Of a DNA stretch of 64,000 nt, positions 35,586-51,490 are shown piece by piece. The position numbers were made by a program, and so were the translations under genes. This DNA comes from a virus. Under the pieces are notes generated by a model. That model was not told the DNA's origin and ran no database searches. It saw only the letters and a list, made by a program, of their open reading frames with translations. The stretch covers positions 2,306-66,305 of the IMG/VR virus record IMGVR_UViG_3300042374_000500, one strand, 5' to 3'. Each line of letters opens with the position of its first letter. Within the stretch, counting starts at the first letter, position 1.

Positions 35586-38500
35586 TTGGCAATACAGAAT
35601 TTAATAACAGGTGAATTTCAGATAAGAAAATTAAATGGAGTTCTTGTAGCTAACAATGGTATCGTTGATGCAGTTGGTAATATTACATCTGGTACGTCTG
35701 GTACAAGTGGTACAAGTGGTACAAGAGGTACTAGTGGTACTTCGGGTTTTGCTGGTACAAGTGCCATGATAGTTTATACATTTACAGCAATTCAAAATCA
35801 AACTACTTTTCTTGTTCCTAGTGGGTTTGTAAATAATATGATTGCTGTTTTTGTTAATGGCGTTAAATTATCACAATACGATTATATAACAGTAAATGGT
35901 TTTAGTGTAGTTTTAAATAATCCTCTTGATGCGGGGGACATTGTAGAAATAGATAATTTTGTTGCTAATTATGTTTCTACTTCAGGAAGTTCGGGTACAG
36001 CTGGATCTTCAGGTACGTCTGGTACAACAGGTACTTCAGGTAGTTCTGGATCTTCAGGTACGTCTGGTACAACAGGTACTTCGGGTAGCTCTGGTACTAC
36101 AGGAACTGGCGGTACTTCAGGTACAACTGGTACTTCTGGTACTTCAGGCAGTTCTGGTTTTAGTGGAAATAGGTATTTTACTACATCTAATACTGTATTT
36201 ACTTTAGGTAATTCTGGTACTTTGATTGTAGGGACAAATTTATCATTTAGTCCTGCACAATCAATAATTATTGTTTACGATAATACAAACTTCCAAGAGT
36301 GTGAAGTTATTTCATATAATTCAACAACTGGGCAATTGCAATTTGCAGAACCCAACAGAACAGTTGGTTCGGGTACTTATTCAAACTGGTCAGTTAACTT
36401 AGATGGCGCAACTGGAGCAGCAGGGACTTCAGGAAGTTCAGGAACATCTGGTTCTACAGGAACATCCGGTACAACTGGTACTTCCGGAACTTCTGGTACT
36501 TCTGGTACTTCCGGAACATCCGGAACTTCTGGTACAACTGGAACTTCTGGTACAACTGGCACTTCCGGAACATCTGGAACTTCAGGTAGTTCTGGTTCAA
36601 GTGCTACAAGCGGTACTTCTGGTACTTCTGGTACCTCTGGCACAACTGGTACATCAGGGACAAGTGGAACTTCAGGAACTTCAGGAACTTCAGGTACTAC
36701 TGGAACGTCAGGTACATCTGCAATAGATGGTACTAGCGGCACGTCAGGTACAACTGGAACATCAGGAACTAGTGGTACATCAGGAACAAGCGGAACAACA
36801 GGTACAAGCGGTACGTCAGGTACTTCAGGGGCAAATGGTATGAATGGAGTTGCAGGAGGTCTTGTGTACTATCTAAATCAATCTTTAAATACAGATACTC
36901 CGTTTGGCAGTCCAACATATAAGCAATGGTCGTCAAATCCAACGGGAGGCGCAGAGCAATCGGTAGCATTAAATAATGTACCCAACAACACAAGAACTCT
37001 TATTGCTACTTATGCGACTGATTCAGGAGTACCTAATGTCACCACAATACCTTCAGGGTTATGGGCGTGGACAACACATTTTGACATAAACCATAATTGT
37101 GATTTAGCGGTAGATGTTGAACTTTACAAATATACAACAGGCGGGGTATCAACACTTTTAGGTACTACTAACATAGATACTGAACCAGTATCGTCAAATA
37201 CTATTAAAGAATTTTTTACTGATTTATTTTTAATATCACAATCTTTAAACGCTACCGATAGACTTTATTGCAAAATATATGTTCTGCATAGTCATGGTGG
37301 GAATGCTGATATAAATTTTTATACTGAAGGAATAAGTAATTACTCTTTTGCACAAACAACATTCAATCCACCAAGTGGTACGTCTGGTACTTCTGGTACT
37401 TCAGGAATAGATGGAACTTCCGGATCTAGCGGTTCTTCAGGTACATCTAGTACATCTGGAACTTCTGGTACGACAGGTACATCTGGAACTTCAGGTGAAA
37501 ATGGTACAAGCGGTAGTTCTGGAACTTCAGGTTCTAGCGGAACTACAGGTACTTCTGGTACTTCTGCAACTTCAGGTACAACCGGTACTTCTGGAACTTC
37601 AGGTGAAAATGGCACAAGTGGCACATCTGGTACAACCGGTACGTCTGGAACTTCAGGAACTTCTGGATCTTCAGGGGTTACTGGTTCTTCAGGTACAAGT
37701 GGAACTACAGGTACATCTGGTACAAGCGGAGCTACTGGTTCTACTGGTACAAGTGGTACATCTGGAGTCACTGGATCTAGTGGTACTTCTGGTACAAGTG
37801 GCGCTAATGGTACAAGTGGCGTTAATGGTACAAGTGGAAGTTCGGGAAGTAGTGGAGTATCTCCATCTGTATCAGGGTTTTTACCTTTAACTGGTGGAAC
37901 ATTAAGTGGTACTCTTTATTCTACTTACAATACTGCTAGTGGTATAGCTAATAACGGTTTCAATGTTGCAAAAACCATAATTGGTAATTTACATATACAA
38001 AACGGAGACGGTACTAATGGTAATAACAGGCAAGCAGCTTTAACATTTCAAGGGGGTAATGCAAGCGAGGCTCAAGCAGGCATTTATGTGTCTAATAATA
38101 GTACTACAGGTACAGCTATGGGCTTTGCTACAACAGATTCATATGCAACAGGCCCACAATTATTTTTAACTGCTACTAATGCGGGTCAAGTAACTTTCCC
38201 AAGAGCTTTAGTTCAAGTAAATGGATATTTAAGAACAGCAGGGGCAACATCTAATACAGTGTTATTTAACAATTCAGGCTCTTCTGTTGATTTTGGTAAT
38301 GTTTTAGGACAAGGAAGTACAGGTAGAAGTACATTTTTTAGAGGGGCTTCAGCTCTTGTTTCTGTATGGTGGGGTACTACTGATGGTAATGGTAACAACA
38401 TACCATATGCAGCAATAGATGCAACAGCTGGTGAGTTTAAGTTTTATAGAAATACAGGTGGAACTGGTGGTGGAACATGGACAAATATTATGACCATGAA

Positions 38501-40319
38501 CGCATCTGGTCTTACTATGGATTCGGGTAATTTTATAGGCAATCTTACAGGAAATGTTACAGGATCGGCTGGTTCTGTTGCATGGGGAAACGTAACTAGC
38601 AAGCCTAGTCTTATTATGTATTATCAAGGGTTCACATTGAACGCTGATACAATGGATGGCAACTCTACCGGGTTTACGTATGCTGTAAATGCTCCATATA
38701 CAGGTCCTATCGCTAGGTTTAGTGAAACTGGGTATTCTTTACAATTAAATGCAGCATATAGTGGAGGAGGTAACCTTATTGCTTTTAGAACTAGAAATGG
38801 AGATGCTGGAGCATTTAATCCTTGGAGGGAGTTTATTACTTCTGGTAATATTGCTGGTCAATCAGTTGCTTATGCTACTTCTGCTGGTAGTGCTAGTACT
38901 GCAACCTCAGCAACTTCTGCAACATATTTAAATAGTAGTAATTATATTCAACAAACAGGTTCTACAGGTTCTTGGAACGCTGATTTCCAAAATACGCCAG
39001 CCGGTACCGCAAGATATGGAGGAGATGTTGGAGCAAATGGGACTAATAATCCCGGAGGAAGTTGGTGGATTCAACAAAACTTTAGACATACTAATGCTTC
39101 TAACTTTTGGGGTATACAAATAGCATGGGGATGGGAAGATAATGCTAATAGATTAGCTACAAGAAATGTATCTGGAGGTACTTTTGGAGGATGGGTTTAT
39201 TATTTAAATAGTAATAATTTTACATTATATGCTCCTTCTTTGACTGGTAGTGGGGCAAGTGGTACATGGAATATAACTTCTGCTAATACAAATAGTATTT
39301 CAAGTGCAGTTGGTGGTGCTTATACATGGACGGGTATTCAATATTTTAGATCCAATAGAAATACAAGCTCAGATTCACCATCGCTACAAGCTTACTCCGA
39401 TAATGGAAGTGGTGCTATAATGGCTTTTCATAGAGGCGGATATTATGCAATAAATATGGGACTTGATTCCGATAACGTATTTAGAATTGGTGGATGGAGT
39501 GCAGCTGCTAATAGATTACAATTAGATATGAGCGGCAATTTAACCATTGCTGGAACTGGAATTTTTGGTATCACTGGTGCTGCTGGTAGTTTAACTTATA
39601 ATGGTACTGCTGATAATATTTATAATAGCGGATTTTATAGAAACTATGGCGATACTGGGCTTTATAATGAATCTTATGGATGTATGTTTAGAAGAAATTC
39701 ATCTTCAAGTCATGGATCATGGGAGGCATTTGGATATAATAAAAATGGGTATGCTGGAATAAACATAGTAGATCCTCAAGGATATTGGAATAATTCAATG
39801 TATGAAAATGGTAATGGAGGTTTATATCAAGAAAATGGGGCAGGGTGGCAATATTACTTTCAAAGGTCAGCCAATGACTGTTTAGGTCTTAGCGGTTCTG
39901 AAACATACGATTGGGTAAGAGCATGTACAAATGGTAAGCATAGAATTACAAATGATACTTGGTGTGATGCAATATCTTACGCTGTTTCATTTAATCCTAT
40001 ATCAGATGCTAGACTAAAAGAAAATGTCGTAACTGTTGACAATGCTCTTGATAAAATATTACAATTAAGAGGTGTTTATTATAGTTGGATTATAGATACA
40101 GAACAAAAAAAACATATTGGCGTTATCGCACAAGAAGTTCAAGAAGTTTGTCCTGAAGCTGTACTTTATCATGAAGAAACTGATACACTTACTGTAAGTT
40201 ACAATGACTTATCTGGTGTCTTTATAGAAGGTTTTAAAGAATTAAATCAAAAGTTAATTGATGCTAATGCGAGAATTGAGATGCTAGAAACTAAACTTAA
40301 CCAATTATTAAACGCATAA
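35586..40319 (+). CDS. tail fibre 1: (Gly-Thr/Ser-Ser/Thr)n collagen-like segments, knob domains and a C-terminal peptidase S74 chaperone
   Basis: Long GTS/GSS/GTT triplet runs; SDARLKEN...GVIAQEV S74 motif; TTG start. Confidence 0.85.
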   Translation: MAIQNLITGEFQIRKLNGVLVANNGIVDAVGNITSGTSGTSGTSGTRGTSGTSGFAGTSAMIVYTFTAIQNQTTFLVPSGFVNNMIAVFVNGVKLSQYDYITVNGFSVVLNNPLDAGDIVEIDNFVANYVSTSGSSGTAGSSGTSGTTGTSGSSGSSGTSGTTGTSGSSGTTGTGGTSGTTGTSGTSGSSGFSGNRYFTTSNTVFTLGNSGTLIVGTNLSFSPAQSIIIVYDNTNFQECEVISYNSTTGQLQFAEPNRTVGSGTYSNWSVNLDGATGAAGTSGSSGTSGSTGTSGTTGTSGTSGTSGTSGTSGTSGTTGTSGTTGTSGTSGTSGSSGSSATSGTSGTSGTSGTTGTSGTSGTSGTSGTSGTTGTSGTSAIDGTSGTSGTTGTSGTSGTSGTSGTTGTSGTSGTSGANGMNGVAGGLVYYLNQSLNTDTPFGSPTYKQWSSNPTGGAEQSVALNNVPNNTRTLIATYATDSGVPNVTTIPSGLWAWTTHFDINHNCDLAVDVELYKYTTGGVSTLLGTTNIDTEPVSSNTIKEFFTDLFLISQSLNATDRLYCKIYVLHSHGGNADINFYTEGISNYSFAQTTFNPPSGTSGTSGTSGIDGTSGSSGSSGTSSTSGTSGTTGTSGTSGENGTSGSSGTSGSSGTTGTSGTSATSGTTGTSGTSGENGTSGTSGTTGTSGTSGTSGSSGVTGSSGTSGTTGTSGTSGATGSTGTSGTSGVTGSSGTSGTSGANGTSGVNGTSGSSGSSGVSPSVSGFLPLTGGTLSGTLYSTYNTASGIANNGFNVAKTIIGNLHIQNGDGTNGNNRQAALTFQGGNASEAQAGIYVSNNSTTGTAMGFATTDSYATGPQLFLTATNAGQVTFPRALVQVNGYLRTAGATSNTVLFNNSGSSVDFGNVLGQGSTGRSTFFRGASALVSVWWGTTDGNGNNIPYAAIDATAGEFKFYRNTGGTGGGTWTNIMTMNASGLTMDSGNFIGNLTGNVTGSAGSVAWGNVTSKPSLIMYYQGFTLNADTMDGNSTGFTYAVNAPYTGPIARFSETGYSLQLNAAYSGGGNLIAFRTRNGDAGAFNPWREFITSGNIAGQSVAYATSAGSASTATSATSATYLNSSNYIQQTGSTGSWNADFQNTPAGTARYGGDVGANGTNNPGGSWWIQQNFRHTNASNFWGIQIAWGWEDNANRLATRNVSGGTFGGWVYYLNSNNFTLYAPSLTGSGASGTWNITSANTNSISSAVGGAYTWTGIQYFRSNRNTSSDSPSLQAYSDNGSGAIMAFHRGGYYAINMGLDSDNVFRIGGWSAAANRLQLDMSGNLTIAGTGIFGITGAAGSLTYNGTADNIYNSGFYRNYGDTGLYNESYGCMFRRNSSSSHGSWEAFGYNKNGYAGINIVDPQGYWNNSMYENGNGGLYQENGAGWQYYFQRSANDCLGLSGSETYDWVRACTNGKHRITNDTWCDAISYAVSFNPISDARLKENVVTVDNALDKILQLRGVYYSWIIDTEQKKHIGVIAQEVQEVCPEAVLYHEETDTLTVSYNDLSGVFIEGFKELNQKLIDANARIEMLETKLNQLLNA

Positions 40320-40320
40320 T

Positions 40321-40686
40321 ATGAGCAAGACATACACTTGGAGAATTATTGATTCAGCTATTATACCAAATAAAGATGGTATGGAAAATATAGTATATAA
40401 AGTACACTATATCAAAAGAGTGGTTGAAGAAATTGATGGTAAAAGATATGAAGCAGACTTTGTAGGTGAAGCCAAAATGCCTGCTCCAGACCCAAATAAC
40501 TTCTCTCCAATCAATGAACTTACAACAGAGGTGGTTTCTGGATGGTTAGAGTCTTTATTAAACCAAGACTTTATTAATAGCAGGCTAGATGGAATGTTGG
40601 CTTTTAAAAAAAGAAGTGATAATTTTGTATATATAAATCCTCCTTTTTCAACAAGAGAAGTTCCAGTAGCTGATACAAACATTTAA
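40321..40686 (+). CDS. tail fibre-associated protein (DUF7936-like)
   Basis: TYTW-x-I...NIVYKVHY...F-x-P-x-x-ELT-x-E-x-V-x-x-WLE. Confidence 0.6.
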   Translation: MSKTYTWRIIDSAIIPNKDGMENIVYKVHYIKRVVEEIDGKRYEADFVGEAKMPAPDPNNFSPINELTTEVVSGWLESLLNQDFINSRLDGMLAFKKRSDNFVYINPPFSTREVPVADTNI

Positions 40687-40707
40687 AAACAAATTAAATA
40701 TAAAAAA

Positions 40708-41091
40708 ATGAAAACAATTGAACCAGTACAAGTTTGGTATAATGGCCAAGAAGTAAATGCAACAGTATTAAATGCATATGCAAGCGATGTGCAACTAAAT
40801 GTTTCTGCTAATTTTTATTACACTTTATTTATTGTGAATGAATACAATTATATAAATCAAGTAAATAGCGGAATGTTAATAATGGATGGTCAAGCTTACC
40901 AAGATTGGGATCAAGATTCTTTTGCTTGGGATTGGGTGGCTTCTAAGCTTAACTTAACAATTACAGGAGAATATGTTCCTAATATACCTCCATCACCAAC
41001 ACCAATACCAGTGCGAACAACAACAACAGAAGCACCAGCAACAACAACAACAACAACAGAAGCACCAATAGTAGAAGCACCAATAGCATAA
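40708..41091 (+). CDS. tail fibre-associated protein with a TTTTEAP tail
   Basis: IEPVQVWYNG...WDWVASKLNLT family plus Thr repeats. Confidence 0.6.
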   Translation: MKTIEPVQVWYNGQEVNATVLNAYASDVQLNVSANFYYTLFIVNEYNYINQVNSGMLIMDGQAYQDWDQDSFAWDWVASKLNLTITGEYVPNIPPSPTPIPVRTTTTEAPATTTTTTEAPIVEAPIA

Positions 41092-41101
41092 TTCTAAAAA
41101 G

Positions 41102-43375
41102 ATGAGCAAAAATACAATTTTAAGTGAATTACCTAATATTGATGGTATAATTAAAGGAAACTTAGATGCTAATTTTAGCACAGCAGTTCCTAATGTTGAC
41201 TATCAATTGCCTATAAGTCTTACGACAAATGGTGTTAGTGGACCATCTACATTTAGTGGTAATGTCTTAAATGTGCCTATTTATAGCTCATCTTCTGGTA
41301 CAGCAGGTAGTTCAGGTAGTTCGGGTAGTTCGGGGAGTTCTGGGACAACTGGTACGTCAGGCACAAGCGGTAGTACAGGAACTTCAGGAACAAGTGGCAC
41401 ATCTGGCACAAGCGGAACAAGTGGCACATCTGGCAGTTCAGGCACTACAGGTACAAGCGGAACATCTGGGACTAGCGGTACAAGCGGAACAAGTGGCAGT
41501 AGTGGAACAACAGGTACTAGTGGAACTTCAGGGTATTCTGGAGATAAGTATTTTACTACTTCAACAACTTCTTTTACTTTAGGTAATAGCGGTACTATAA
41601 CAGTACAGACAGCATTGGCATATACAATTGGTCAAACTATCCTTATTGTATATAATATTACAAACTATCAAGAATCAGTAGTTACAGCATATAATCCTAG
41701 TACGGGATCTCTTTCATTTGGCGCTCCAGCAACCACAGTTGGTTCAGGTACTTATGCAGCATGGATTGTCAACTTAGCTGGTGCTAGCGGTGGTGATGGT
41801 AGTTCAGGAACTTCAGGTTCTTCTGGTATTACTAGTACTTCTGGAACCACAGGAACATCAGGTTCTTCAGGTAGCTCAGGTTCTTCAGGCAGTTCAGGTT
41901 CTACAGGTAGTTCAGGTTCTTCAGGCAGTTCAGGTACTTCAGGAACTAATGGTACATCAGGATCGTCTGGCACCACAGGATCATCTGGCACATCAGGTAC
42001 TAGAGGTACTAGCGGAACTAGCGGTACTAGCGGTACTAATGGAACTGGTGGCAGTTCGGGTGTTTCAGGTAGTTCAGGTACTTCGGGTACAACTGGTACT
42101 TCGGGTACTAGCGGTACTAATGGAACTGGTGGCAGTTCGGGTGTTTCAGGTAGTTCAGGTACTTCGGGTACAACTGGTACTTCGGGTACAACCGGTACTT
42201 CAGGCACTTCTGGAACGTCAGGTTCTTCGGGTTCTTCGGGTTCGTCAGGTTCGTCTGGAGTAAATGGTAATAATGGTTCTTCAGGTTCGTCTGGAGTAAA
42301 TGGCGGAAATGGTTCTTCAGGCACTTCTGTTTCTGTATCAGGTACTACAAATTATATAACTAAATTTACATCAGCATCTACTATTGGTAATAGTAATATT
42401 ACATCAAATGGATCTGAAGTTGATATAGCAGGGGGGAATAATCCTTTAAGAGTTTTTGGAGTAGAGCCATATGTTAGTATTCATGCAATAGGAGCAACAA
42501 ATTCTGCGGGTCTTAGGATTTATCCATCAGGCGGATTTGGTGCTTATATTGGCAATTATGCAACAGGGGCATTAGTTTTAGTATCTGCAAATGCAGAAGC
42601 GGCTTTTGTATATGGTGATGGTAATATTGTATCTAATGGAGGATGGTTTATTAATAATTCCACATTCAGAGGTTTGCATAATAGTGCGACTGCGATGTAT
42701 TTTGCATCAAAAGATTCAGGTTATTATGATATATCATCATCAGGAGTTTCAGTTTCTTCGTTGAGATTATTTACAGGAGGCAATCAAGCAAGTCTTAGAG
42801 GATATGTGTATGCAGACACTAATAATGATATAGGTTTTTTACATCATAATGGTGGTTGGAGTGTTAGAACTAATACAGCAGGTGTTACTTTATATGGTGA
42901 TTCTGGTTCAACTGGTACCTTTACTGCAACAAAATATAAATTTGGTAGTAATAATACTCTTTCTGGTAATGGATTAGTTGAAATTGTTGATATGGCAGAA
43001 GTTGGAATGGCAACACAAGCGGCTTCCTATAGATGGTATAATAGTACTGCTGCTACTATATTAATGTCCTTAAATTCAAGCGGAAATTTAACTGCGGGGG
43101 CATTTTTTGAAGGTTCAGATATTAGATTTAAAAATGTCATAGAAACCAATCCTCAGATAGATTTAACAAGTATAGACGTAATTAAATTCATTCGTACAGA
43201 TAATGAAAGTGGACAAGTAAGATATGGCTATTCAGCACAACAAGTACAAGAAATACTTCCAGATTTGGTTACTGAATCTGAAGAAAAGTTAAGTTTGAAC
43301 TATATGGATGTTCACACATTAAAAATAGCTGCTTTAGAAAAACGCATTGCTGAATTAGAAGCTAAACTAAAATAA
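41102..43375 (+). CDS. tail fibre 2: G-S/T collagen-like segments and a C-terminal S74 chaperone
   Basis: GTS/GSS runs; SDIRFKN...GYSAQQV. Confidence 0.85.
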   Translation: MSKNTILSELPNIDGIIKGNLDANFSTAVPNVDYQLPISLTTNGVSGPSTFSGNVLNVPIYSSSSGTAGSSGSSGSSGSSGTTGTSGTSGSTGTSGTSGTSGTSGTSGTSGSSGTTGTSGTSGTSGTSGTSGSSGTTGTSGTSGYSGDKYFTTSTTSFTLGNSGTITVQTALAYTIGQTILIVYNITNYQESVVTAYNPSTGSLSFGAPATTVGSGTYAAWIVNLAGASGGDGSSGTSGSSGITSTSGTTGTSGSSGSSGSSGSSGSTGSSGSSGSSGTSGTNGTSGSSGTTGSSGTSGTRGTSGTSGTSGTNGTGGSSGVSGSSGTSGTTGTSGTSGTNGTGGSSGVSGSSGTSGTTGTSGTTGTSGTSGTSGSSGSSGSSGSSGVNGNNGSSGSSGVNGGNGSSGTSVSVSGTTNYITKFTSASTIGNSNITSNGSEVDIAGGNNPLRVFGVEPYVSIHAIGATNSAGLRIYPSGGFGAYIGNYATGALVLVSANAEAAFVYGDGNIVSNGGWFINNSTFRGLHNSATAMYFASKDSGYYDISSSGVSVSSLRLFTGGNQASLRGYVYADTNNDIGFLHHNGGWSVRTNTAGVTLYGDSGSTGTFTATKYKFGSNNTLSGNGLVEIVDMAEVGMATQAASYRWYNSTAATILMSLNSSGNLTAGAFFEGSDIRFKNVIETNPQIDLTSIDVIKFIRTDNESGQVRYGYSAQQVQEILPDLVTESEEKLSLNYMDVHTLKIAALEKRIAELEAKLK
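42023..42189 (+). repeat. exact 81-bp tandem duplication in fibre 2
   Basis: The unit GGTACTAGCGGTACTAATGGAACTGG... at 42023 recurs at 42104. Confidence 0.85.
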
Positions 43376-43376
43376 T

Positions 43377-44714: not shown

Positions 44715-44773
44715 GGTAAAATATTTTTTTAATTAAATAAATTAACTTAATTTTGTCTTTAAAACATAAAAAC

Positions 44774-45109: not shown

Positions 45110-45111
45110 TA

Positions 45112-45147
45112 ATAAATAGGCAGCTTAAATCGCTGCCTTTATTTTTT
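45112..45147. terminator. bidirectional terminator
   Basis: AGGCAGC/GCTGCCT stem between convergent genes. Confidence 0.65.
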
Positions 45148-48100
45148 CTATAACCATCTGAGCTGTTATTGATTTATGACATTCAAAGTGTTTGTCAGTG
45201 TCTTTATGTTTGCACCAATTCCAATCTCCCTTATCAAAGATAATCCCATTTTCATTCCAACAGCTATTACAAACATTGGTATTTGTTATTCTAATGCAGT
45301 CTAATTGAAATTCGTGATCAGCGGAAGTGAAATTGCTTATCATTATTACTTTCTTTTTTAAAGCCCAAGCAAGCCAGCTTAACCCACTAGAAAGACCAAT
45401 AAAGAATTCACTATTTAATATTACATCAATCGTGTTTTCTATTGAAGTATCAGATATTTTAGTACAATTATCAAATGGATTGTCCTCTTTAGATACGTTT
45501 ATTACAGCATATCCTTCCTCGTGTAAATAATTGATTACCTCTTGCCAGCCTTCTCTAGTCCAAAACTTGCATCCAGAAGTTGAATTAGTGGCTATAGTAA
45601 TATATTTACCACTAAGCTTGCTTTTGTTTTCAATCTTCAAAATAGGTCTTATTTCTTTAAATTCAAGACCTAGTATATTTGTAGCTGCTTTCTGTAATGG
45701 AATAGTATTTGGAACTTCTGGTTCTTTATCACTATTATAAAACCATCCTAATCTATATAAAGCATAAATGTTATCTACAACTACACCCGGTTCTACTAAT
45801 TCCAATTCAGGATAGTCCAGTATTTTATTCCAAAAAGTGGACAATATAACCTTACATTGATGTAGTTTTTGAAACTCTAATGCATAAGGAACCCAAGCCA
45901 ATGTATCTCCTAATGATTTACTTTCTAATACAATAAATACTCTTTTGCCATTTAAATGTAAATAATTTGCATATATCATCTGATTATTTTGCCAAACCTT
46001 AGTTGTCCAATTGGTAAAATATGTTCTATTTAGCTTTATCCAATGATTTGATTTAACAAAGTTTTCATATTGGCATTTACCTTCCCCATCATAAAATGCA
46101 ACTTTAAATAAATCATCAACATTGCCTTTAATTTCTAAAAACGGATTATCAACAAAGTGTTGCGTGATAGATGCTTTTTGATTTTGAATAGGTAGTTCAA
46201 TTATTTTTTTATAAGCATCCTCTTGTCTAAAAGCAAATATAGGGGTGGTATTGTCTGTAGGTACTTCGTAATTACATTCTAGGGTATTTAAATCACTATC
46301 AATTGGCTGTAAATAATCGGTAAACATATTTCCATATTGAGGCAAATTTCTAGCTATAATAGGCAATCCGTAGCTAATGGCTTCCCTTAAAACTAAGGGG
46401 TTACATTCCCAAGTGGAATTAAACATAAAAATGTCAGCTGCGGTCATAAATTTATCAATATCATTTCTTTCTCCCCACACTTTAACATTTGGAGGCAAAT
46501 CTTTCATTAATGGCTCCCAATAATCTTTAAAGTTCCCAGCTTGGTTCCCAACAAAATGAAAATCTATATTTGGATATTTTTTAGCAATTTCAATTCCTTC
46601 TCCTTGATTTTTACCAGATGTCCATAATCCAACATTTAAAACATTCTTTTTATGCATAGATAAGCCTAATTCATTTATTGCTTGTATATAATGAGCTTGA
46701 TCAAATGGCTTTTGATTTATAGGGTATTCTATTGTAACAAATTTAGATACCATATTAGCAAAGGTTTGCTCGTGATATGGGCTACAGAATATATATGAAT
46801 CTGGGTGAAATATCTTTTCTTTGTCAGGATCAAAAGATACATCGTGGCAAGTTTCTACAATTCTATATTTTCTATTTGAATCATAAAGTCTTTTTACCAT
46901 TCCCATATCTAACCTTTCTGATGGCTCATCTATATGTATTAAATCAGGCCTCCATTTATCAATTACCTTGAATAGCTCCATCTTATCTTCATACAAAGTA
47001 GTAAAGTTTTCTCCTAGTAAACTTTTTATCTTATCTCTTTGAACCACAAAATCTAAGCTATAACATTGATATTCAACAACATATATTTCACAATCAGTAT
47101 AATCATTAAGAGCTTCAATTCTTTTAAGCAAAAATTGAGGCATGCCACCTGTACTCAAATGAGGTGCTAGATATAGTATTCTCATTTTCTTTTCGCCACC
47201 AATAAATTCATTTATCTTGTTTATATCCTTTTCTCCATGATAAAATAATAAATCTTCTTTCTTTGCAGGTATTCTAAGCCAATTGCCATCTACTCTAGCT
47301 TCTCCCGTAAATTCTAAATTAGAATGTAAACCATTAACATACATACAAGGCAAGCCATTGTAAGCAAGTCTTTTATATAGCAATACATTCATTATTGTTT
47401 CTTCGTGATATGGAGCATACCATTGATGATTTGCTACTATTTTAGGATGATTGCACATCCAATACCATTCATCTAAAAAGTCTATTGTTTTTTGCCCAGC
47501 AACATAATATCCCGTTTGTCTATATCTTTGCCTCACATATTGGTTTATGCCAAATAAATCACAAGCCGGATGCTCTAAGGTAGTGCTTAAATCATCTCGG
47601 CTATCTGCCCCACCACGACCATTTATATGCAAATAGTCATACACCCCTTCTACAAAATAAGGATAGGTTGAATCATAGTCATAGAAGTCAAAAATCCTAT
47701 CTACATAAGCACTTGCAACAGAATCAGTATCAACATAAGCTATTGTTTTTGCATAATTAGTTAAAGCATCTTTTGTAATTTTAGGTCTTTCAATAAGAAG
47801 CTTGTAAATACTTTTGTCTAATCTATCTATAAAATCTTTTCTTTTAATGTAGCTTTTAACATCACAATCCCATTTTATTGTATTAACGTCTACTACATTT
47901 ACTTTTTTATCTGAATTAAGCATATAAACGTAAATAGGATAAGAGCTGTAATTTCTAATGGAACGACAACAAGCATCCACAAGATCAAAATAGGAATCGT
48001 CAGCATAAAGGACGTAAGCTTTTTCATGTTTTTGGGGTTTATTTATGTAGTATCCGTAATATTCATTTCCATAGATTAGCTGCAAATCTGGGTATCTATG

Positions 48101-48535
48101 CTCCATTACTTCCAATGTTAAATCTGGTTGTAAATGTGTTTCATGGATATTACCCTCATGTTCCCCTTGTTCCATCATATATGGGATTGCCACTAAACAG
48201 CCCTTATTTTGGCTTATAATTGAATCTATAAGGACTTGGGCATCTTCGGTAGCTATATGCTCTAGAACATCCCCTAAAATCACAAAATCATATGGAGTAA
48301 TATCAAACCCAACAATGCTTTGCACAAATACATTCTTATACTTATCCCTTAAATTGTACTTTTCTACATAAGGTTCAAAGATTTCAACAGCATCCATATC
48401 AAATCCATAGTCCTTTAGGAGCATTGAATATGTCCCTATCCCGGGGCCTGCGTCTAATATTTTAGCGTTTTTACTTAAATTTTCTACTAGATATTGCTTA
48501 ATATCTTCCTTAAAATAGCTGAAACTGTGTGGCAT
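45125..48535 (-). CDS. four-domain protein: SAM methyltransferase, GT-A glycosyltransferase, GT4 (GT-B) glycosyltransferase and Aah/TibC-like protein O-heptosyltransferase
   Basis: ILDAGPGIG/GDVLEH; YVDTD; APHLSTGGMPQ...KNQ...ECNPLVLREA; SKSLGDTLAW...FFIGLSSGLSWLAWAL...CNSCWN...C...C. Confidence 0.8.
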   Translation of the reverse strand: MPHSFSYFKEDIKQYLVENLSKNAKILDAGPGIGTYSMLLKDYGFDMDAVEIFEPYVEKYNLRDKYKNVFVQSIVGFDITPYDFVILGDVLEHIATEDAQVLIDSIISQNKGCLVAIPYMMEQGEHEGNIHETHLQPDLTLEVMEHRYPDLQLIYGNEYYGYYINKPQKHEKAYVLYADDSYFDLVDACCRSIRNYSSYPIYVYMLNSDKKVNVVDVNTIKWDCDVKSYIKRKDFIDRLDKSIYKLLIERPKITKDALTNYAKTIAYVDTDSVASAYVDRIFDFYDYDSTYPYFVEGVYDYLHINGRGGADSRDDLSTTLEHPACDLFGINQYVRQRYRQTGYYVAGQKTIDFLDEWYWMCNHPKIVANHQWYAPYHEETIMNVLLYKRLAYNGLPCMYVNGLHSNLEFTGEARVDGNWLRIPAKKEDLLFYHGEKDINKINEFIGGEKKMRILYLAPHLSTGGMPQFLLKRIEALNDYTDCEIYVVEYQCYSLDFVVQRDKIKSLLGENFTTLYEDKMELFKVIDKWRPDLIHIDEPSERLDMGMVKRLYDSNRKYRIVETCHDVSFDPDKEKIFHPDSYIFCSPYHEQTFANMVSKFVTIEYPINQKPFDQAHYIQAINELGLSMHKKNVLNVGLWTSGKNQGEGIEIAKKYPNIDFHFVGNQAGNFKDYWEPLMKDLPPNVKVWGERNDIDKFMTAADIFMFNSTWECNPLVLREAISYGLPIIARNLPQYGNMFTDYLQPIDSDLNTLECNYEVPTDNTTPIFAFRQEDAYKKIIELPIQNQKASITQHFVDNPFLEIKGNVDDLFKVAFYDGEGKCQYENFVKSNHWIKLNRTYFTNWTTKVWQNNQMIYANYLHLNGKRVFIVLESKSLGDTLAWVPYALEFQKLHQCKVILSTFWNKILDYPELELVEPGVVVDNIYALYRLGWFYNSDKEPEVPNTIPLQKAATNILGLEFKEIRPILKIENKSKLSGKYITIATNSTSGCKFWTREGWQEVINYLHEEGYAVINVSKEDNPFDNCTKISDTSIENTIDVILNSEFFIGLSSGLSWLAWALKKKVIMISNFTSADHEFQLDCIRITNTNVCNSCWNENGIIFDKGDWNWCKHKDTDKHFECHKSITAQMVIEKIKAAI

Positions 48536-48540
48536 ATTTA

Positions 48541-48590
48541 CAAAAGTAATTAATTTAATTAAAAAACAAATAAAATTTCATAATATTGCA
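48541..48590. promoter_or_regulatory. divergent promoter region of the glycosylation locus, with the 16-bp motif at 48548-48563
   Basis: Minus strand TACTTTTG (48541-48548) and TTTG (48567-48570), with the motif in the spacer. Confidence 0.65.
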
Positions 48591-48592
48591 TT

Positions 48593-48964
48593 ATGAAAAT
48601 AGAAGTAAGTATCGGTGAAGTAGTAGATAAGTATACTATATTAACCATAAAAAAGCTATTCATTCATGACAATGAAAAGCTGGAAAACGTAGAAAAAGAA
48701 TGGAAAATAATTAAATCTGCTCTATTAAAAAAATATCCTGAAACATTAACAGAGCCATTAACCCAAGAGCTTTATGATATAAATAAAAGGCTATGGAAAG
48801 TAGAGGATGATCTAAGGGATTGCGAGCATAAAAATTATTTTGGAGAAAAATTTGTGGAGTTGGCTAGGGAAGTTTACCAATTGAATGATGTGAGAGCCAT
48901 TATAAAGAAGCAAATTAACCAAAAATATGGTTCTGAATTAATGGAAGAAAAATCTTATAAATAA
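48593..48964 (+). CDS. DUF6165-like helical protein
   Basis: VSIGE-x-x-DK-x-TIL-x-IK...LWKVEDDLR...ND-x-RA-x-IK-x-x-IN...EEKSY. Confidence 0.75.
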   Translation: MKIEVSIGEVVDKYTILTIKKLFIHDNEKLENVEKEWKIIKSALLKKYPETLTEPLTQELYDINKRLWKVEDDLRDCEHKNYFGEKFVELAREVYQLNDVRAIIKKQINQKYGSELMEEKSYK

Positions 48965-48965
48965 T

Positions 48966-49895
48966 ATGAATTTACGTTTTATTTGTGCGCAGCCAGCAAG
49001 TGATTATTACGTTTGGCAAGTTGAAACACTTTTGAATAATTTCATTAGTGTTGGTATTAATCCTAATAATGTTGATATAGTATGTTGGAAAGTAAATGGA
49101 GTAATCCCAGAAAATTGGATAAAATTAGCTAATGGTTATCCAGCGAGATTTTTTTTCTATGATGACACTAGAGAAACAAGGCATTACATATCTTCCATAA
49201 GACCAAACATCTTAAAACAACATTTTCAAGCTTTCCCTGAATTAGAAAATGAAGCTATTTTGTATCATGATTGTGATATTGTATTTACTAAGCCAATTGA
49301 TTGGAACCAATTTTTACAAGACGACAAATGGTATGGATCTGATTGCAGATGGTACATAGGACACGACTACATTATAGGCAAAGGAGAAGATATATTAGAT
49401 AAAATGTGCGAAATAGTAGACATAGATAAGCAACTAGTAAAAGACAACGAACTAAATGCAATAGGCGCACAATATCTAATGAAGGGTATCAATGCAGAAT
49501 ATTGGGCAAGAGTAGAAAAAGATTGCGAAAGGCTATTTAAAGAAATAACCGATATAAACAATGAAAAGAAAGCCATAAATCCATCATATCATGAATTACA
49601 GATATGGTGTAGCGATATGTGGTGTGTGCTTTGGAACGGATGGAAAATGGGCAAAGAAACTATATGCCACCCATCACTAGAATTTGCTTGGGCAACAAGT
49701 ACCGAAGCGGATTGGGATAGATTAAATATATTCCATAATGCGGGCGTTACAGATACAGCAAGTGGTTTATTTTATAAAGCATTGTATATAAATACGTTGC
49801 CTTATAGTGAAACTTTGGATATAAAAGAAGGGACAGCAAGTAAAAAATATTGGGAAATAATACAAGAAACAGCTAAAAAATCAGTTTTATTATGA
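48966..49895 (+). CDS. GT-A glycosyltransferase resembling plant peptidyl O-glycosyltransferases (SERGT/HPAT, GT96/GT95)
   Basis: YYVWQ, YISSIRP, YHDCDIVFTKP, IWCSDMW. Confidence 0.6.
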   Translation: MNLRFICAQPASDYYVWQVETLLNNFISVGINPNNVDIVCWKVNGVIPENWIKLANGYPARFFFYDDTRETRHYISSIRPNILKQHFQAFPELENEAILYHDCDIVFTKPIDWNQFLQDDKWYGSDCRWYIGHDYIIGKGEDILDKMCEIVDIDKQLVKDNELNAIGAQYLMKGINAEYWARVEKDCERLFKEITDINNEKKAINPSYHELQIWCSDMWCVLWNGWKMGKETICHPSLEFAWATSTEADWDRLNIFHNAGVTDTASGLFYKALYINTLPYSETLDIKEGTASKKYWEIIQETAKKSVLL

Positions 49896-50404
49896 CAACA
49901 AAAATAGTAGAGTCAGAAAATCCACTTGAACATTGGAACGATATTCAAAGCGTGGAAGGCAAGGTGGTATTGGATTTAGGGTGTGGATGGTTATTCCAGC
50001 CATTTGAATCAACTCCTCAATATTTTATAAGTAGGGGGGCTAAAAAAATAATTGGTGTAGATGCAGCATGCGGAGAAATTGAAAAGTTAAATCAAACTTT
50101 TCTTGACCACACTTTTATTTGCAAAACAATTTTAGAATTTGATGATTTAGCTAACTTAATTATAGATCATAAGCCACAATTAATTAAAATGGATATTGAA
50201 GGTTATGAGCATCATATGAAAAATATTACAGCAGAACAATTTGAATCAGTAGAAGAAATTGCCGTTGAATATCACAATCCAGAGTGTAAAAAAATATTAG
50301 AAGAAAAATTAACTGAACTAGGTTTTGATATATTTGCTACCAATCAATTTGGATGGTTTTGTACTGATATAAATGTAATGGGAATAATGCACGCAAAAAG
50401 ATAA
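49892..50404 (+). CDS. SAM-dependent methyltransferase (FkbM-like)
   Basis: VLDLGCG, LIKMDIEGYE, IAVEYH. Confidence 0.8.
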   Translation: MTTKIVESENPLEHWNDIQSVEGKVVLDLGCGWLFQPFESTPQYFISRGAKKIIGVDAACGEIEKLNQTFLDHTFICKTILEFDDLANLIIDHKPQLIKMDIEGYEHHMKNITAEQFESVEEIAVEYHNPECKKILEEKLTELGFDIFATNQFGWFCTDINVMGIMHAKR

Positions 50405-50405
50405 A

Positions 50406-51269
50406 ATGAAAATAAAAAAAGCTACATACGGAGGTGAGGATTGCAAAGATATTCTACAAAATAGAGTGTTGGCTAATAAATTAGTCATAAGAGTAAATAA
50501 TGATATAATTGGTGATCCTGCTGTCGGGCAAGTAAAATATTTAGAAATTGAATTTGAAGATGGTTTTACTGCTACAGTAAGAGAAGGTGATACTTTTGTT
50601 TATCCTAAATCAAATAACCGGAAATTAGGTATATTTTATTCTAATAACAACAACCATAAAATATGGGACTCAATATATAAGTCTTTAGATACAATAAAAG
50701 ATGCTAGCGATGGAGTAGCTGACATAGTTATTTGTACATGGGAGCATATGCCAAATGTTCCATTTCAGCAATTAAATAGCTGGTACAAAAGCCAATCTCA
50801 TCTTAATCAACTTCTTCAAATTATGCAATGTCTATATACGGCAAAGACAATGGGAGAATATGACTACGTTTCTTTTCTAGAGCATGATGTTATGTACCCA
50901 AAAGGCTATTTTGATTACCCAGATTTTGATCATGGCGATATTTTAACTAATATGAATTATGGAGGCGTTTGCATAGAAGGATGGCAAAAAAGAGGTCAAG
51001 ACGATGAACCTTTCCACCAAATGACTATGAGATTAAATGATGCTATTCAGCATTGTTTGAGCATTTTACCAAATGCATTGGTTACCAATAGCGGGTTAAT
51101 AGAATCTCAAACCTTTACAAGAAAGAAATGGCATTGTGAAAATGAAGCCATTCATATTAATCATGGAGTACATTTTACATCACATAATAGTATTTACAAG
51201 AAAGATAATTTAATTCAAAATCACCCATATTGGGGCGAACATGATAAATATAAAAATTTATTTATATGA
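50406..51269 (+). CDS. SUEL-lectin/DUF3395-like domain fused to a GT-A glycosyltransferase
   Basis: IKKATYG...NNDIIGDPAVGQVKYLEIEF followed by FLEHDVMY. Confidence 0.6.
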   Translation: MKIKKATYGGEDCKDILQNRVLANKLVIRVNNDIIGDPAVGQVKYLEIEFEDGFTATVREGDTFVYPKSNNRKLGIFYSNNNNHKIWDSIYKSLDTIKDASDGVADIVICTWEHMPNVPFQQLNSWYKSQSHLNQLLQIMQCLYTAKTMGEYDYVSFLEHDVMYPKGYFDYPDFDHGDILTNMNYGGVCIEGWQKRGQDDEPFHQMTMRLNDAIQHCLSILPNALVTNSGLIESQTFTRKKWHCENEAIHINHGVHFTSHNSIYKKDNLIQNHPYWGEHDKYKNLFI

Positions 51270-51490
51270 ACAAAATAAAAGAGATCCTAATTTCTTATGC
51301 AACTGCATTTAACCCCACTGAAGAACAAAAAGAAGTAGCAGAAAAAAGACTTGAAATATGTGCTGGTTGTGAGTTTTGGGTGCAATCTGCAATAAGAGAT
51401 TATTGTGGTAAATGTGGATGCACCACCAGTGCAAAAGTATTTAGTCCAGTAGGTGCAGATGCTTGTCCTGAAAAAAAATGGACAATTTAA
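51266..51490 (+). CDS. small Cys-rich protein (DUF6171-like)
   Basis: RLEICAGC...CGKCGC...CPEKKW. Confidence 0.7.
   Translation: MNKIKEILISYATAFNPTEEQKEVAEKRLEICAGCEFWVQSAIRDYCGKCGCTTSAKVFSPVGADACPEKKWTI

What the first reader, a model, noticed from the sequence alone, without database searches (positions are those of the whole stretch)
35586..51490. Candidate phage-encoded virion protein O-glycosylation system: protein glycosyltransferases beside Ser/Thr collagen fibres
Seen: two fibre genes with long (G-T/S-S/T)n runs sit a few genes upstream of a divergent locus. That locus encodes about five glycosyltransferase domains, two methyltransferases, a lectin-like domain, DUF6165 and a Cys-rich protein. 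Established: Aah/TibC enzymes heptosylate Ser residues of repetitive autotransporters, and plant SERGT/HPAT enzymes glycosylate extensins. Pro-poor, Thr-rich collagens such as B. anthracis BclA and Riftia cuticle collagen are glycosylated on Thr. Inference: the two initiating-type enzymes here are protein-directed rather than DNA- or LPS-directed. The phage would build a methylated glycan on its own fibres and appendages, which could stabilise a hydroxyproline-free triple helix or act as a glycan coat or adhesin. No nucleotide-sugar synthesis genes are in the window, so the sugar donors would come from the host.
Basis: partly seen in the sequence, partly recalled or inferred. Interest (0 to 1): 0.9.

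Follow-up and report, generated by a model that had tools for sequence, protein, structure and literature searches.

The report
Phage two-tag virion sugar-coating locus
A 66-kb uncultured phage carries a block of sugar-adding enzymes, and comparison with other phages and bacteria suggests that it coats the phage's own collagen-like fibres and threonine-tailed proteins with sugars, although no sugar has been measured.

Summary
Two fibre genes (35586-40319, 41102-43375) hold 130 and 88 proline-free Gly-Thr/Ser-Ser/Thr triplets. They lie 1.75 kb from a glycosyltransferase locus (45125-51490).

The 1136-aa enzyme ends in a true TibC/Aah-family domain. It scores 248 bits against the TIGR04414 cut-off of 200. 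The catalytic Asp, three of four sugar-binding residues and all four iron-finger Cys are kept. Arg286 is Thr and the thumb is deleted.

This domain travels with Gly-Ser/Thr repeats. That holds in 30 of 32 related viral loci, in 7 of 7 fibre relatives with such repeats against 0 of 73 without, and in a cyanophage and a 735-kb phage. In bacteria it sits next to the stand-alone gene in 10 of 13 loci.

The second initiating enzyme (48966-49895) has a GT8-like GT-A fold. I found no support for the GT95/GT96 label. It tracks poly-Thr tags instead. Four complete syntenic genomes with it have 16-23 Thr5+ runs, and two without it have none.

Best reading (about 0.68): there are two tag-and-enzyme pairs, plus elongating transferases and methyltransferases. 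These cytoplasmic enzymes would glycosylate phage proteins using host sugar donors. No glycan has been observed.

This scan has noted both pairings before on other DNA. I found no publication of either in the searches I ran.

The parts
35586..40319 (+). Fibre 1 (1577 aa). Eight proline-free Gly-Thr/Ser-Ser/Thr collagen-like tracts (130 triplets), globular domains, and a C-terminal intramolecular-chaperone domain. Proposed acceptor of the TibC-like domain.
   Evidence: Collagen 1e-42 and Peptidase_S74 5.2e-19. Triplet counts. Tail-fibre PHROGs.
40321..40686 (+). Small protein between the fibres (DUF7936). Role unknown.
   Evidence: PF25590, 43.2 bits against a cut-off of 27.
40708..41091 (+). 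127-aa protein ending in poly-Thr tags (T4-EAPA-T6-EAP...). In relatives the tag is poly-Thr, absent, or in one case Gly-Thr-Ser. Proposed acceptor.
41102..43375 (+). Fibre 2 (757 aa). 88 Gly-Ser/Thr triplets. Proposed acceptor.
   Evidence: Collagen 2.1e-32 and a weak Peptidase_S74 match..
43377..44714 (+). 445-aa protein with repeated S-x-D-G-G-x-T-F/W-type motifs; no family assigned. It sits between fibre 2 and the enzyme gene. Its membership in the system is uncertain.
   Evidence: Sequence. No Pfam or PHROG hit. Relatives in some loci.
45118..45138 (.). Terminator-like hairpin read on both strands, lying between the convergent fibre block and the enzyme gene.
45125..46135 (-). TibC/Aah-type protein O-glycosyltransferase domain (residues 801-1136 of the 1136-aa protein). 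Proposed initiating enzyme for Gly-Thr-Ser triplets.
   Evidence: TIGR04414 at 248.3 bits against 200. TibC 4rap at 8.7e-43. Residue conservation.
46136..47185 (-). GT4 (GT-B) domain, residues 451-800. It adjoins the TibC-like domain in all 49 TibC-seeded viral loci. Proposed elongating transferase.
   Evidence: Glycos_transf_1 4e-12..
47186..48040 (-). GT-A-like domain, residues 166-450, with an invariant D-x-D. This assignment is a lead only.
   Evidence: Atlas score 0.96. Glyco_transf_8 in 1 of 16 members at E 0.018. Invariant D104 and D106.
48041..48535 (-). Class I SAM methyltransferase domain, residues 1-165.
   Evidence: Methyltransf_23 at 32.3 bits against 27.
48593..48964 (+). DUF6165 protein, divergently transcribed. 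It accompanies the TibC module in most related viral loci but was not detected in the bacterial loci. Role unknown.
48966..49895 (+). phrog_4417-family GT-A glycosyltransferase with an invariant D102-C103-D104. Proposed initiating enzyme for poly-Thr tags.
   Evidence: phrog_4417 7.7e-66. pLDDT 92.9. GT8/GT24-like fold. Co-occurrence with poly-Thr tags.
49892..50404 (+). Probable small SAM methyltransferase (weak evidence).
50406..51269 (+). Rhamnose-binding-lectin-type N-domain joined to a GT-A-like C-domain (the C-domain is a lead only).
   Evidence: 5h4s at 2.5e-9 and 9.4e-13. Atlas score 0.90.
51266..51490 (+). 74-aa protein with six Cys (phrog_13558). It stays with the TibC module when 48966-51269 is absent. 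Role unknown.
6194..6514 (-). 106-aa protein ending in T6-AAP-T6-AA. Its orthologues in the two phrog_4417-free genomes lack the tag.
12195..12575 (+). 126-aa protein ending in T4-AAP, next to the portal gene.
12595..12894 (+). 99-aa protein ending in T6-AAV.
18992..22702 (+). 1236-aa virion structural protein with five T5-6 runs (T5-AGP repeats) near its C-terminus.
   Evidence: phrog_14478..
23154..24383 (+). 409-aa Cys/Thr-rich protein with nine Thr5+ runs.

Best explanation
The locus is a phage-encoded, cytoplasmic protein O-glycosylation system. It is aimed at the phage's own structural proteins and is built from two tag-and-enzyme pairs.

PAIR 1. The TibC/Aah-type domain at the end of the 1136-aa enzyme puts a first sugar on Ser or Thr of the (Gly-Thr/Ser-Ser/Thr)n collagen-like tracts of the two fibres. 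This parallels how TibC and Aah load Ser residues of the repetitive adhesin encoded next to them. The fused GT4 and GT-A-like domains extend the glycan and the fused methyltransferase caps it.

PAIR 2. The GT-A enzyme 48966-49895 starts glycans on the poly-Thr tags (T5-6 followed by AAP or AGP). These tags are carried by at least six proteins of the head, muzzle and fibre region. The lectin-plus-GT-A protein and the small methyltransferase then extend or modify those glycans.

Sugar donors come from the host.

SHOWN: the family membership, the GT-A fold, solubility of the enzymes, and the co-occurrence patterns.
INFERRED: that any sugar is transferred, which residues take it, which sugar it is, and the order of steps.

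Likely benefits, all inferred, are stabilisation of a proline-free triple helix and a glycan coat that alters adsorption or shields the particle.
For: (1) TibC membership. TIGR04414 scores 248.3 bits against a cut-off of 200. TibC structure 4rap matches at E 8.7e-43 over residues 831-1128. Asp110, Thr226, Lys230 and Cys339/342/358/370 are kept in 37 of 37 phage domains, and Trp305 in 36 of 37. The residues are as defined in eLife 2014, PMC4358343; I read passages only.

(2) The TibC-like gene is convergent on a Gly-Ser/Thr fibre gene in 30 of 32 related viral loci that have at least 5 kb downstream.

(3) Among 80 loci that share the fibre's non-collagen C-domain, 7 of 7 with Ser/Thr-type triplets hold the TibC domain. 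None of the 73 without them does. 50 of those 73 records were searched whole and none has it.

(4) Records seeded only by a (GTS)4 DNA pattern hold it in 23 of 98 cases. Among records at least 90% complete the figure is 6 of 11.

(5) Independent lineages show the same neighbours. Microcystis phage Mel-JY01 and a 735-kb phage both have Gly-Thr-Ser ORFs within about 4 kb of their TibC-like gene. In 10 of 13 bacterial loci (Methylobacter, Methylococcaceae, Polaromonas, Pseudobdellovibrionaceae and others) a stand-alone TibC-like gene lies 35-912 bp from a Gly-Thr-Ser repeat ORF.

(6) phrog_4417 and poly-Thr tags go together. Among six complete syntenic genomes, the four with the gene have 18, 16, 18 and 23 Thr5+ runs and the two without it have 0 and 0. 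All six keep TibC and Gly-Thr-Ser fibres.

(7) Orthologues of 40708-41091 carry Thr tags in 12 of 14 records with the gene. They do so in 1 of 5 records without it that are at least 60% complete. One gene-free complete genome carries a Gly-Thr-Ser tag there instead.

(8) Loci with phrog_4417 but no TibC have 45 Thr5+ runs per 100 kb (11 of 11 loci) and no Gly-Thr-Ser ORF. Loci without the gene have 0.8-3.9.

(9) In 5 of 6 cultured phages examined the homologue lies next to the tail-tube or capsid gene, or to Thr-rich ORFs. In those phages capsid, tail-tube or portal proteins, or ORFs flanking the homologue, end in poly-Thr.

(10) No locus protein has a membrane segment, while a control protein does. 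The record has no integrase and no thymidylate-synthase-type hydroxymethylase.
Against: No glycan has been observed on anything here. All the support is membership plus co-occurrence.

Many loci are related phages with conserved gene order, so the counts are not independent events. Some are near-duplicates, such as L006/L007 and L016/L018.

The TibC-like domain differs from characterised enzymes. The sugar-binding Arg286 is Thr in 32 of 37 phage domains, and an 8-residue deletion removes the thumb tip needed for the dodecamer. Both the donor and the assembly state may therefore differ.

Gly-Thr-Ser repeats exist without TibC: in 75 of 98 pattern-seeded records, which are mostly fragments, and in 5 of 11 complete ones. 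Two of the 32 TibC loci (L040, L045) and phage LR756504 have no such ORF nearby.

The poly-Thr pairing has exceptions. L029 has the tag but no gene in an 81%-complete record. L013 and L027 have the gene but no tag on that orthologue. Chryseobacterium phage MA9V-3 has only internal runs.

The small tagged proteins have no family, so their presence in virions is inferred from gene position only. The 469-aa ORF in the capsid-gene position (14139-15548, no family found) has no tag.

Three of the domain assignments rest on weak evidence: GT-A 166-450 and the C-half of 50406-51269 are leads only, and the methyltransferase call for 49892-50404 is weak. The second fold could not be run.
Confidence: 0.68

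Rival explanations
1. Only the TibC-like pair is a protein glycosylation system. The genes 48966-51269 would then do something unrelated, such as modifying a host glycan or a small molecule. On this reading the poly-Thr runs are plain flexible linkers.
For: The 48966-51269 block is a separable insertion. It is absent from complete relatives that keep the TibC module. No sequence family ties it to protein glycosylation. Its nearest folds include polysaccharide enzymes such as WbbM and LgtC.
Against: Thr5+ runs vanish completely in the two complete genomes that lack the block (0 and 0, against 16-23). They are densest where the gene occurs without TibC. In Firmicute phages the homologue sits inside the head-tail module beside proteins that end in poly-Thr.
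Confidence: 0.1
2. The enzymes modify host envelope glycans during infection rather than phage proteins. Targets could be LPS core, capsule or lipid-linked precursors. The effect would be exclusion of other phages or altered lysis.
For: GT4, GT9-like and GT8-like folds are typical of LPS and polysaccharide synthesis. Weaker hits point to LPS heptosyltransferases. A lectin domain fits glycan handling.
Against: The best match by far is the protein-directed TibC/Aah equivalog, at 248 bits against 24 bits for LPS heptosyltransferase I. No membrane segments are present. No integrase is found, so lysogenic conversion is unlikely. This reading gives no reason for the enzyme to follow Gly-Thr-Ser repeat genes in phages and bacteria.
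Confidence: 0.1
3. There is no functional glycosylation of virion proteins. The repeats are structural spacers, and their linkage with the enzymes reflects shared ancestry and conserved gene order.
For: Most of the viral loci counted are related. Complete genomes with Gly-Thr-Ser repeats but no TibC exist. No experiment exists.
Against: The same pairing recurs in a cyanophage, a 735-kb phage and several bacterial orders, where the only shared genes detected are the TibC-like gene and the repeat gene. The catalytic and iron-binding residues are invariant in 37 of 37 domains. Tags are swapped on one orthologue in step with the enzyme present.
Confidence: 0.08
4. The transferases glycosylate phage DNA bases.
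For: Many phage glycosyltransferases act on DNA (cited in PMC12619734, passages read).
Against: The whole record has no thymidylate-synthase-type hydroxymethylase. The Tet/JBP search was uninformative because its control did not ring. TibC-family membership and the location inside the fibre block point elsewhere.
Confidence: 0.03

Closest known systems
TibC-TibA and Aah-AIDA-I of E. coli (bacterial autotransporter heptosyltransferases, BAHT; TIGR04414; PDB 4RAP/4RB4; Yao et al. 2014 eLife, PMC4358343)
   Same: The sequence is homologous above the curated cut-off. The catalytic Asp, Thr226, Lys230, Trp305 and the four iron-finger Cys are kept. The enzyme is soluble and cytoplasmic. It is encoded next to a highly repetitive Ser-rich structural protein, which is the presumed acceptor.
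   Different: The acceptor would be a collagen-like Gly-Thr-Ser triple-helix fibre of a virus, not a beta-helical autotransporter. Arg286 is Thr. The thumb tip is deleted, so a dodecamer is doubtful. The domain is fused to GT4, GT-A-like and methyltransferase domains. The donor sugar is unknown.
Virion glycosylation of mycobacteriophages (Freeman et al. 2023, Cell Host Microbe; paper not held, known here only through citing passages in PMC12619734 and PMC13313380)
   Same: Phage-encoded glycosyltransferases and a methyltransferase are present. The acceptors are at the C-termini of virion proteins. The result would be a glycan coat on the particle.
   Different: The host phylum differs, and here it is probably Bacteroidota. 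Two distinct acceptor codes are present, Gly-Thr-Ser triplets and poly-Thr tags. One initiating enzyme is of the TibC family. Homology to the mycobacteriophage enzymes was not tested. Nothing has been shown by experiment here.
Glycosylated proline-poor collagens: Bacillus anthracis BclA and Riftia cuticle collagen (recalled, not checked in any call)
   Same: These are Gly-X-Thr-type collagen-like repeats whose Thr carries O-glycans. The sugars are thought to stabilise the helix in place of hydroxyproline.
   Different: Those systems use unrelated enzymes. Here the triplets are Gly-Thr-Ser with no Pro at all, and the enzyme is TibC-like.
GT8/GT24-type retaining GT-A transferases (glycogenin, UGGT catalytic domain, Skp1 galactosyltransferase, LgtC, WbbM)
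   Same: 48966-49895 shares their fold, with Foldseek E values from 2.7e-6 to 4e-4 and TM about 0.5. It also has a D-x-D motif. Several of them act on proteins or protein-bound glycans.
   Different: There is no detectable sequence similarity. The family (phrog_4417) has no described function.

Membership tests
BAHT (TibC/Aah, TIGR04414) | Whole-domain match above the curated equivalog cut-off | tested here: met
   248.3 bits against a cut-off of 200, E 1.2e-73, profile positions 29-372 of 374. TibC 4rap matches at E 8.7e-43.
BAHT (TibC/Aah, TIGR04414) | Catalytic base Asp110 | tested here: met
   This is D877 of the 1136-aa protein. It is Asp in 37 of 37 phage domains. The residue's role is taken from PMC4358343.
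BAHT (TibC/Aah, TIGR04414) | Four sugar-binding residues: Thr226, Lys230, Arg286 and Trp305 | tested here: not met
   Thr, Lys and Trp are kept (37, 37 and 36 of 37). Arg286 is Thr here and in 32 of 37 domains, and Arg in only 2. Three of the four are therefore met.
BAHT (TibC/Aah, TIGR04414) | Iron finger: Cys339, 342, 358 and 370 | tested here: met
   These are C1089, C1092, C1108 and C1119. All four are kept in 37 of 37 domains. Iron binding itself was not tested.
BAHT (TibC/Aah, TIGR04414) | Beta-hairpin thumb (Phe265/Val266) that builds the dodecamer | tested here: not met
   The TibC residues around 263-270 fall in an 8-residue gap of the alignment. The gap is shared by most phage domains. 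This is judged from sequence alignment only.
BAHT (TibC/Aah, TIGR04414) | The acceptor is the passenger domain of an autotransporter encoded next door | tested here: not met
   The neighbouring repetitive genes are collagen-like fibres. Adjacency to a Ser-rich repeat gene does hold.
BAHT (TibC/Aah, TIGR04414) | Transfers heptose from ADP-heptose to Ser | not testable with these tools
   A heptose-1-phosphate adenylyltransferase match above the cut-off occurs in 2 of the 4 Bacteroidota-labelled assemblies that hold related contigs, and also in the Methylobacter genome. The host of this phage is not known.
Mycobacteriophage-type virion glycosylation | Phage glycosyltransferases plus a methyltransferase, with Ser/Thr-rich C-terminal acceptors on virion proteins | tested here: inconclusive
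   The enzymes are present. C-terminal poly-Thr tags occur on four small proteins and Thr runs on two larger ones. Only 18992-22702 has a virion-protein family. The 469-aa ORF in the capsid-gene position has no tag.
Mycobacteriophage-type virion glycosylation | Glycans seen on the proteins by mass spectrometry | not testable with these tools
   No data are available.
GT95/GT96 (plant HPAT/SERGT), as proposed for 48966-49895 | Detectable sequence relationship | tested here: inconclusive
   Pfam gives no glycosyltransferase family for any of the 18 members at E up to 10. The PDB gives no sequence relative. I do not know whether these libraries hold GT95 or GT96 models, so this is absence of support, not disproof.
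GT-A fold, GT8-like clan (48966-49895) | Rossmann-like GT-A fold with a D-x-D motif | tested here: met
   The model has pLDDT 92.9. 98 PDB matches have E of 0.001 or better, and the 50 listed are almost all GT-A transferases. D102, C103 and D104 are invariant in 18 sequences.
Collagen triple-helix repeat (PF01391) | Long uninterrupted Gly-X-Y periodicity | tested here: met
   E 1e-42 and 2.1e-32. The fibres have 130 and 88 triplets.
Collagen triple-helix repeat (PF01391) | Pro/Hyp-rich X and Y positions | tested here: not met
   X is Thr or Ser in 112 of 130 and 77 of 88 triplets. Y is Ser or Thr in 115 of 130 and 75 of 88. Pro is not among the eight commonest residues at either position.

The most novel reading that the evidence does not exclude
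Phages, and some bacteria, use portable peptide codes for cytoplasmic O-glycosylation. Gly-Thr-Ser collagen triplets would be read by a thumbless TibC-type enzyme. Poly-Thr tags would be read by the unnamed phrog_4417 GT-A family. Both codes coexist in this 66-kb phage and can be swapped on the same orthologue. If so, a virion's glycan coat is programmed by which tags its proteins carry and which initiating enzymes the genome holds. It would also make the TibC family primarily a collagen-repeat glycosyltransferase family, with the E. coli adhesin enzymes as a side branch.
Probability: 0.45. Interest if true: 0.85.

Novelty: new variant of a known kind. Interest (0 to 1): 0.7.

Why it matters
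According to the citing passages I read, virion glycosylation has been reported by experiment for mycobacteriophages. If this reading holds, glycan-coated virions are common in environmental phages of other phyla. They would be made by enzyme families not yet linked to phages: the TibC/Aah family and the function-less phrog_4417 family.

It would give the TibC family a second, probably much larger, class of substrate in proline-free collagen-like repeats. It would also explain how such fibres could be stable without hydroxyproline. Finally, it would provide short genetically encoded tags for site-directed glycosylation of proteins in bacteria.

For phage biology it bears on adsorption, on particle stability and on recognition by hosts or immune systems.

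Tried and rejected
DNA search of the locus against cultured phages found no match.

I looked for the GT95/GT96 relationship and did not find it.

Profile comparison of domain 166-450 with the phrog_4417 family gave only a weak alignment around the D-x-D region (probability 12%, E 0.0024). The lectin-GT protein gave nothing against that family. PDB and Pfam gave no usable hit for domain 166-450, nor for the C-half of 50406-51269.

I considered DNA glycosylation and rated it low. I considered lysogenic conversion and rated it low.

PHROG and Pfam searches gave no family for the small Thr-tagged proteins. No tRNA genes were found. The sigma-70-type promoter scan found fewer sites than the shuffles (35 against a mean of 48.5), so I did not use it.

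LITERATURE. Ten searches were run. The search for 'TibC' with 'phage' returned only unrelated papers (listing seen). 'Collagen-like' with 'heptosyltransferase' gave one unrelated paper. 'Autotransporter heptosyltransferase' with 'phage' gave two papers. One, PMC8498110, uses the terms in unrelated places (passages read). The other, PMC7142665, I saw only in the listing and did not open. Three searches combining phage, capsid or tail, threonine or collagen-like, and glycosylation found nothing. Subscription journals and supplements were not visible, so publication elsewhere cannot be excluded. The key precedent, Freeman et al. 2023, is not held; I know it only from citing passages.

I did not use complex prediction, the look-up of sequencing runs, read laying or the search of protein representatives.

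Full report
WHAT THE WINDOW IS. The window is bases 2306-66305 of a 66,305-bp IMG/VR virus record rated 100% complete. It encodes a primase/helicase, a large terminase, a portal and a large virion structural protein. All late genes lie on the + strand. GC content is about 0.33. No tyrosine integrase is found and no tRNA. The locus has no DNA match in cultured phages.

Fibre 1 (35586-40319) and fibre 2 (41102-43375) are collagen-like by Pfam, at 1e-42 and 2e-32. Fibre 1 ends in the endosialidase-chaperone domain typical of trimeric phage fibres; fibre 2 matches that domain only weakly. Their 130 and 88 triplets are almost purely Gly-Thr/Ser-Ser/Thr, and Pro is not among the commonest residues at either position.

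A hairpin at 45118-45138 reads as a terminator on both strands. It separates this block from the only minus-strand late gene, 45125-48535. A five-gene + strand operon (48593-51490) starts 58 bp beyond that gene's start codon. The observation check gives the domain content and says which assignments are solid and which are leads.

THE TibC-LIKE DOMAIN IS GENUINE. Residues 810-1133 pass the NCBIfam equivalog model for the autotransporter O-heptosyltransferases Aah and TibC, at 248.3 bits against a cut-off of 200. LPS heptosyltransferase I scores 23.8 bits. The alignment to the TibC crystal structure has E 8.7e-43.

I mapped the residues that Yao et al. define (PMC4358343, passages read) onto 37 phage domains.
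- The catalytic Asp110, Thr226, Lys230 and the four iron-binding cysteines are invariant.
- Trp305 is kept in 36 of 37.
- The fourth sugar-binding residue, Arg286, is Thr in 32 of 37.
- The stereoselectivity position Pro300 is Ser in 32 of 37, as in Aah.
- The tip of the beta-hairpin thumb, which links dimers into the dodecamer, lies in an 8-residue deletion.

So this is a member of the family by sequence. It belongs to a distinct branch whose donor sugar and quaternary structure may differ.

WHAT THE TibC-LIKE DOMAIN TRAVELS WITH. A scan of viral contigs found 49 loci, at 53-92% identity. In 30 of the 32 with at least 5 kb downstream, a Gly-Ser/Thr collagen-like ORF lies on the opposite strand. 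The nearest such ORF starts 11-4,036 bp beyond the gene. The exceptions are L040 and L045.

For a test that does not start from the enzyme, I searched with the fibre's non-collagen C-terminal half.
- Of 80 loci, 6 have Ser/Thr-type triplets and 1 is borderline. All 7 hold the TibC domain.
- The other 73 do not hold it. These include about 19 whose collagen-like repeats are poor in Ser and Thr.
- 50 of those 73 records were searched whole and none holds it, including 0 of 10 that are at least 90% complete.

Records picked only by a (GTS)4 DNA pattern hold it in 23 of 98 cases, and in 6 of 11 that are at least 90% complete. The enzyme therefore nearly always comes with such repeats, but the repeats can exist without it.

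The pairing is not confined to one phage lineage. Microcystis phage Mel-JY01 has a 1016-aa ORF with 606 residues of such triplets, ending about 1.7 kb upstream of its TibC-like fusion gene. A 735-kb phage has one about 4 kb away. A third huge phage has none within 15 kb.

In bacterial assemblies, 10 of 13 stand-alone TibC-like genes (377-440 aa where a host ORF was called) lie 35-912 bp from a small Gly-Thr-Ser repeat ORF. These include a complete Methylobacter chromosome, Methylococcaceae, Methylomicrobium, Polaromonas and Pseudobdellovibrionaceae. None of the other window genes was detected beside them. I did not check whether those bacterial loci lie in prophages. This enzyme-beside-its-repeat arrangement is the same as in tibC-tibA and aah-aidA.

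THE SECOND INITIATING ENZYME. 48966-49895 belongs to phrog_4417, a family with no described function. With an 18-sequence alignment it folds confidently, at pLDDT 92.9. It matches retaining GT-A transferases of the GT8/GT24 type: WbbM, the UGGT catalytic domain, the Skp1 galactosyltransferase, glycogenin and LgtC. E values range from 2.7e-6 to 4e-4 and TM is about 0.5. Its D-C-D motif is invariant.

What this enzyme tracks is poly-Thr. The window holds 18 runs of five or more Thr in five ORFs, plus a T4 tag on 12195-12575. Most are T5-6 followed by AAP or AGP, and on four small proteins they sit at the extreme C-terminus.

Among six complete syntenic genomes of 64-68 kb, the four with phrog_4417 have 18, 16, 18 and 23 such runs. 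The two without it have none. All six keep the TibC module and the Gly-Thr-Ser fibres. In the two gene-free genomes the orthologues of 6194-6514 and 12595-12894 simply end without the tag.

For the small protein 40708-41091, 12 of 14 records with the gene have a Thr tag. Among records without the gene that are at least 60% complete, 1 of 5 has it. One gene-free complete genome (L032) carries a Gly-Thr-Ser tag at that position instead.

Loci with phrog_4417 but no TibC have 45 runs per 100 kb and no Gly-Thr-Ser ORF. Loci without phrog_4417 have 0.8-3.9.

Of the 77 cultured phages with a homologue I looked at six. In Enterococcus phiFL1A, Clostridium phiCTP1, Lactobacillus LpeD, Staphylococcus SA2 and Lacticaseibacillus R3.3 the gene lies directly after the tail-tube or capsid gene or, in LpeD, after two Thr-rich ORFs. 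In those phages capsid, tail-tube or portal proteins, or the ORFs flanking the gene, end in poly-Thr. Chryseobacterium MA9V-3 shows only internal runs.

HOW IT MOST LIKELY WORKS. The locus is two modules.
- Module A is the four-domain enzyme, DUF6165 and the Cys-rich protein. It is present wherever the Gly-Thr-Ser fibres are present among close relatives.
- Module B is 48966-51269. It is inserted between DUF6165 and the Cys-rich gene, and it comes and goes with the poly-Thr tags.

None of the proteins has a membrane segment, while a control protein scores well above the threshold. They must therefore act in the cytoplasm, where virion proteins fold. The record has no sugar-nucleotide genes, so the donors are the host's.

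The closest TibC-bearing contigs in genome assemblies are binned with Sediminibacterium, Chitinophaga and a 'Bacteroides' MAG. Two of those assemblies have a heptose-1-phosphate adenylyltransferase above its cut-off. Heptose is therefore possible, but the Arg286 change makes it uncertain.

Everything beyond membership, fold, solubility and co-occurrence is inference.

WEAKNESSES. No glycan has been seen. Many loci are related, so the counts overstate independence. Repeats exist without the enzyme, in 5 of 11 complete genomes. The Thr-tag rule has exceptions (L029, L013, L027, MA9V-3). The small tagged proteins have no family, so their place in the virion is assumed from gene position. Two glycosyltransferase assignments and one methyltransferase assignment are weak.

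NOVELTY. Ten literature searches found no paper that links the TibC/Aah family or collagen-like fibres to phage glycosylation, or poly-Thr tags to a phage transferase. The library lacks most subscription journals, and the key precedent could be read only through citations.

This scan has reported both pairings before on other DNA. For TibC with Gly-Thr-Ser fibres, 245 earlier notes in at least 188 genomes hold the search words, and several follow-ups are concordant. The phrog_4417 or poly-Thr pairing has been noted in Enterococcus-type and aquatic phages. I reached both pairings from my own calls before reading those notes.

What this window adds is both systems side by side in one small, complete genome. 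Syntenic relatives that lack one module make a clean natural experiment.

Noticed in passing
L068 (Microcystis phage Mel-JY01, PP395634.1) 2-3049: A 1016-aa + strand ORF with 606 residues of Gly-Ser/Thr triplets is not annotated as one gene. The record instead lists a minus-strand CDS at 739-2298 and a short + CDS at 2519-3052. The TibC-like fusion protein next to it is labelled 'methyltransferase FkbM'.
   Followed up: partly
window 43377-44714: A 445-aa protein has about seven repeats of an S-x-D-G-G-x-T-F/W-like motif, which I recall as the Asp-box/BNR signature. No Pfam or PHROG family was found. It lies between fibre 2 and the enzyme gene, and relatives occur in some related loci.
   Followed up: no
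window 5893-6156 and 6194-6514 (- strand): These are tandem paralogues. The downstream-encoded 106-aa copy ends in T6-AAP-T6-AA, while the 87-aa copy has no tag.
   Followed up: no
window 48541-48548 (- strand): TACTTTTG lies 5 nt upstream of the ATG of the 1136-aa gene. It fits the Bacteroidota -7 promoter consensus TAnnTTTG as I recall it, which would make the mRNA nearly leaderless and would fit a Bacteroidota host.
   Followed up: no
G162 and G173 (L299-L306), orthologues of window 12195-12894: In the two phrog_4417-free genomes, the frame of the 12195-12575 orthologue reads on to the end of the 12595-12894 orthologue. The two genes may therefore be one ORF there.
   Followed up: no
window 53499-53966 and 51686-52276: A Peptidase_M15 endolysin candidate (2e-17) lies just downstream of the locus. 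So does a protein with a strong N-terminal membrane segment, which was used here only as a hydrophobicity control.
   Followed up: no
L279 (63.6-kb contig in a 'Bacteroides' MAG) and L277 (Sediminibacterium MAG): Contigs with this phage's gene content (GT4-TibC fusion, Gly-Thr-Ser ORFs) are binned inside bacterial MAGs. They look like phage contigs, so they are a weak host hint and a possible source of mis-binning.
   Followed up: partly
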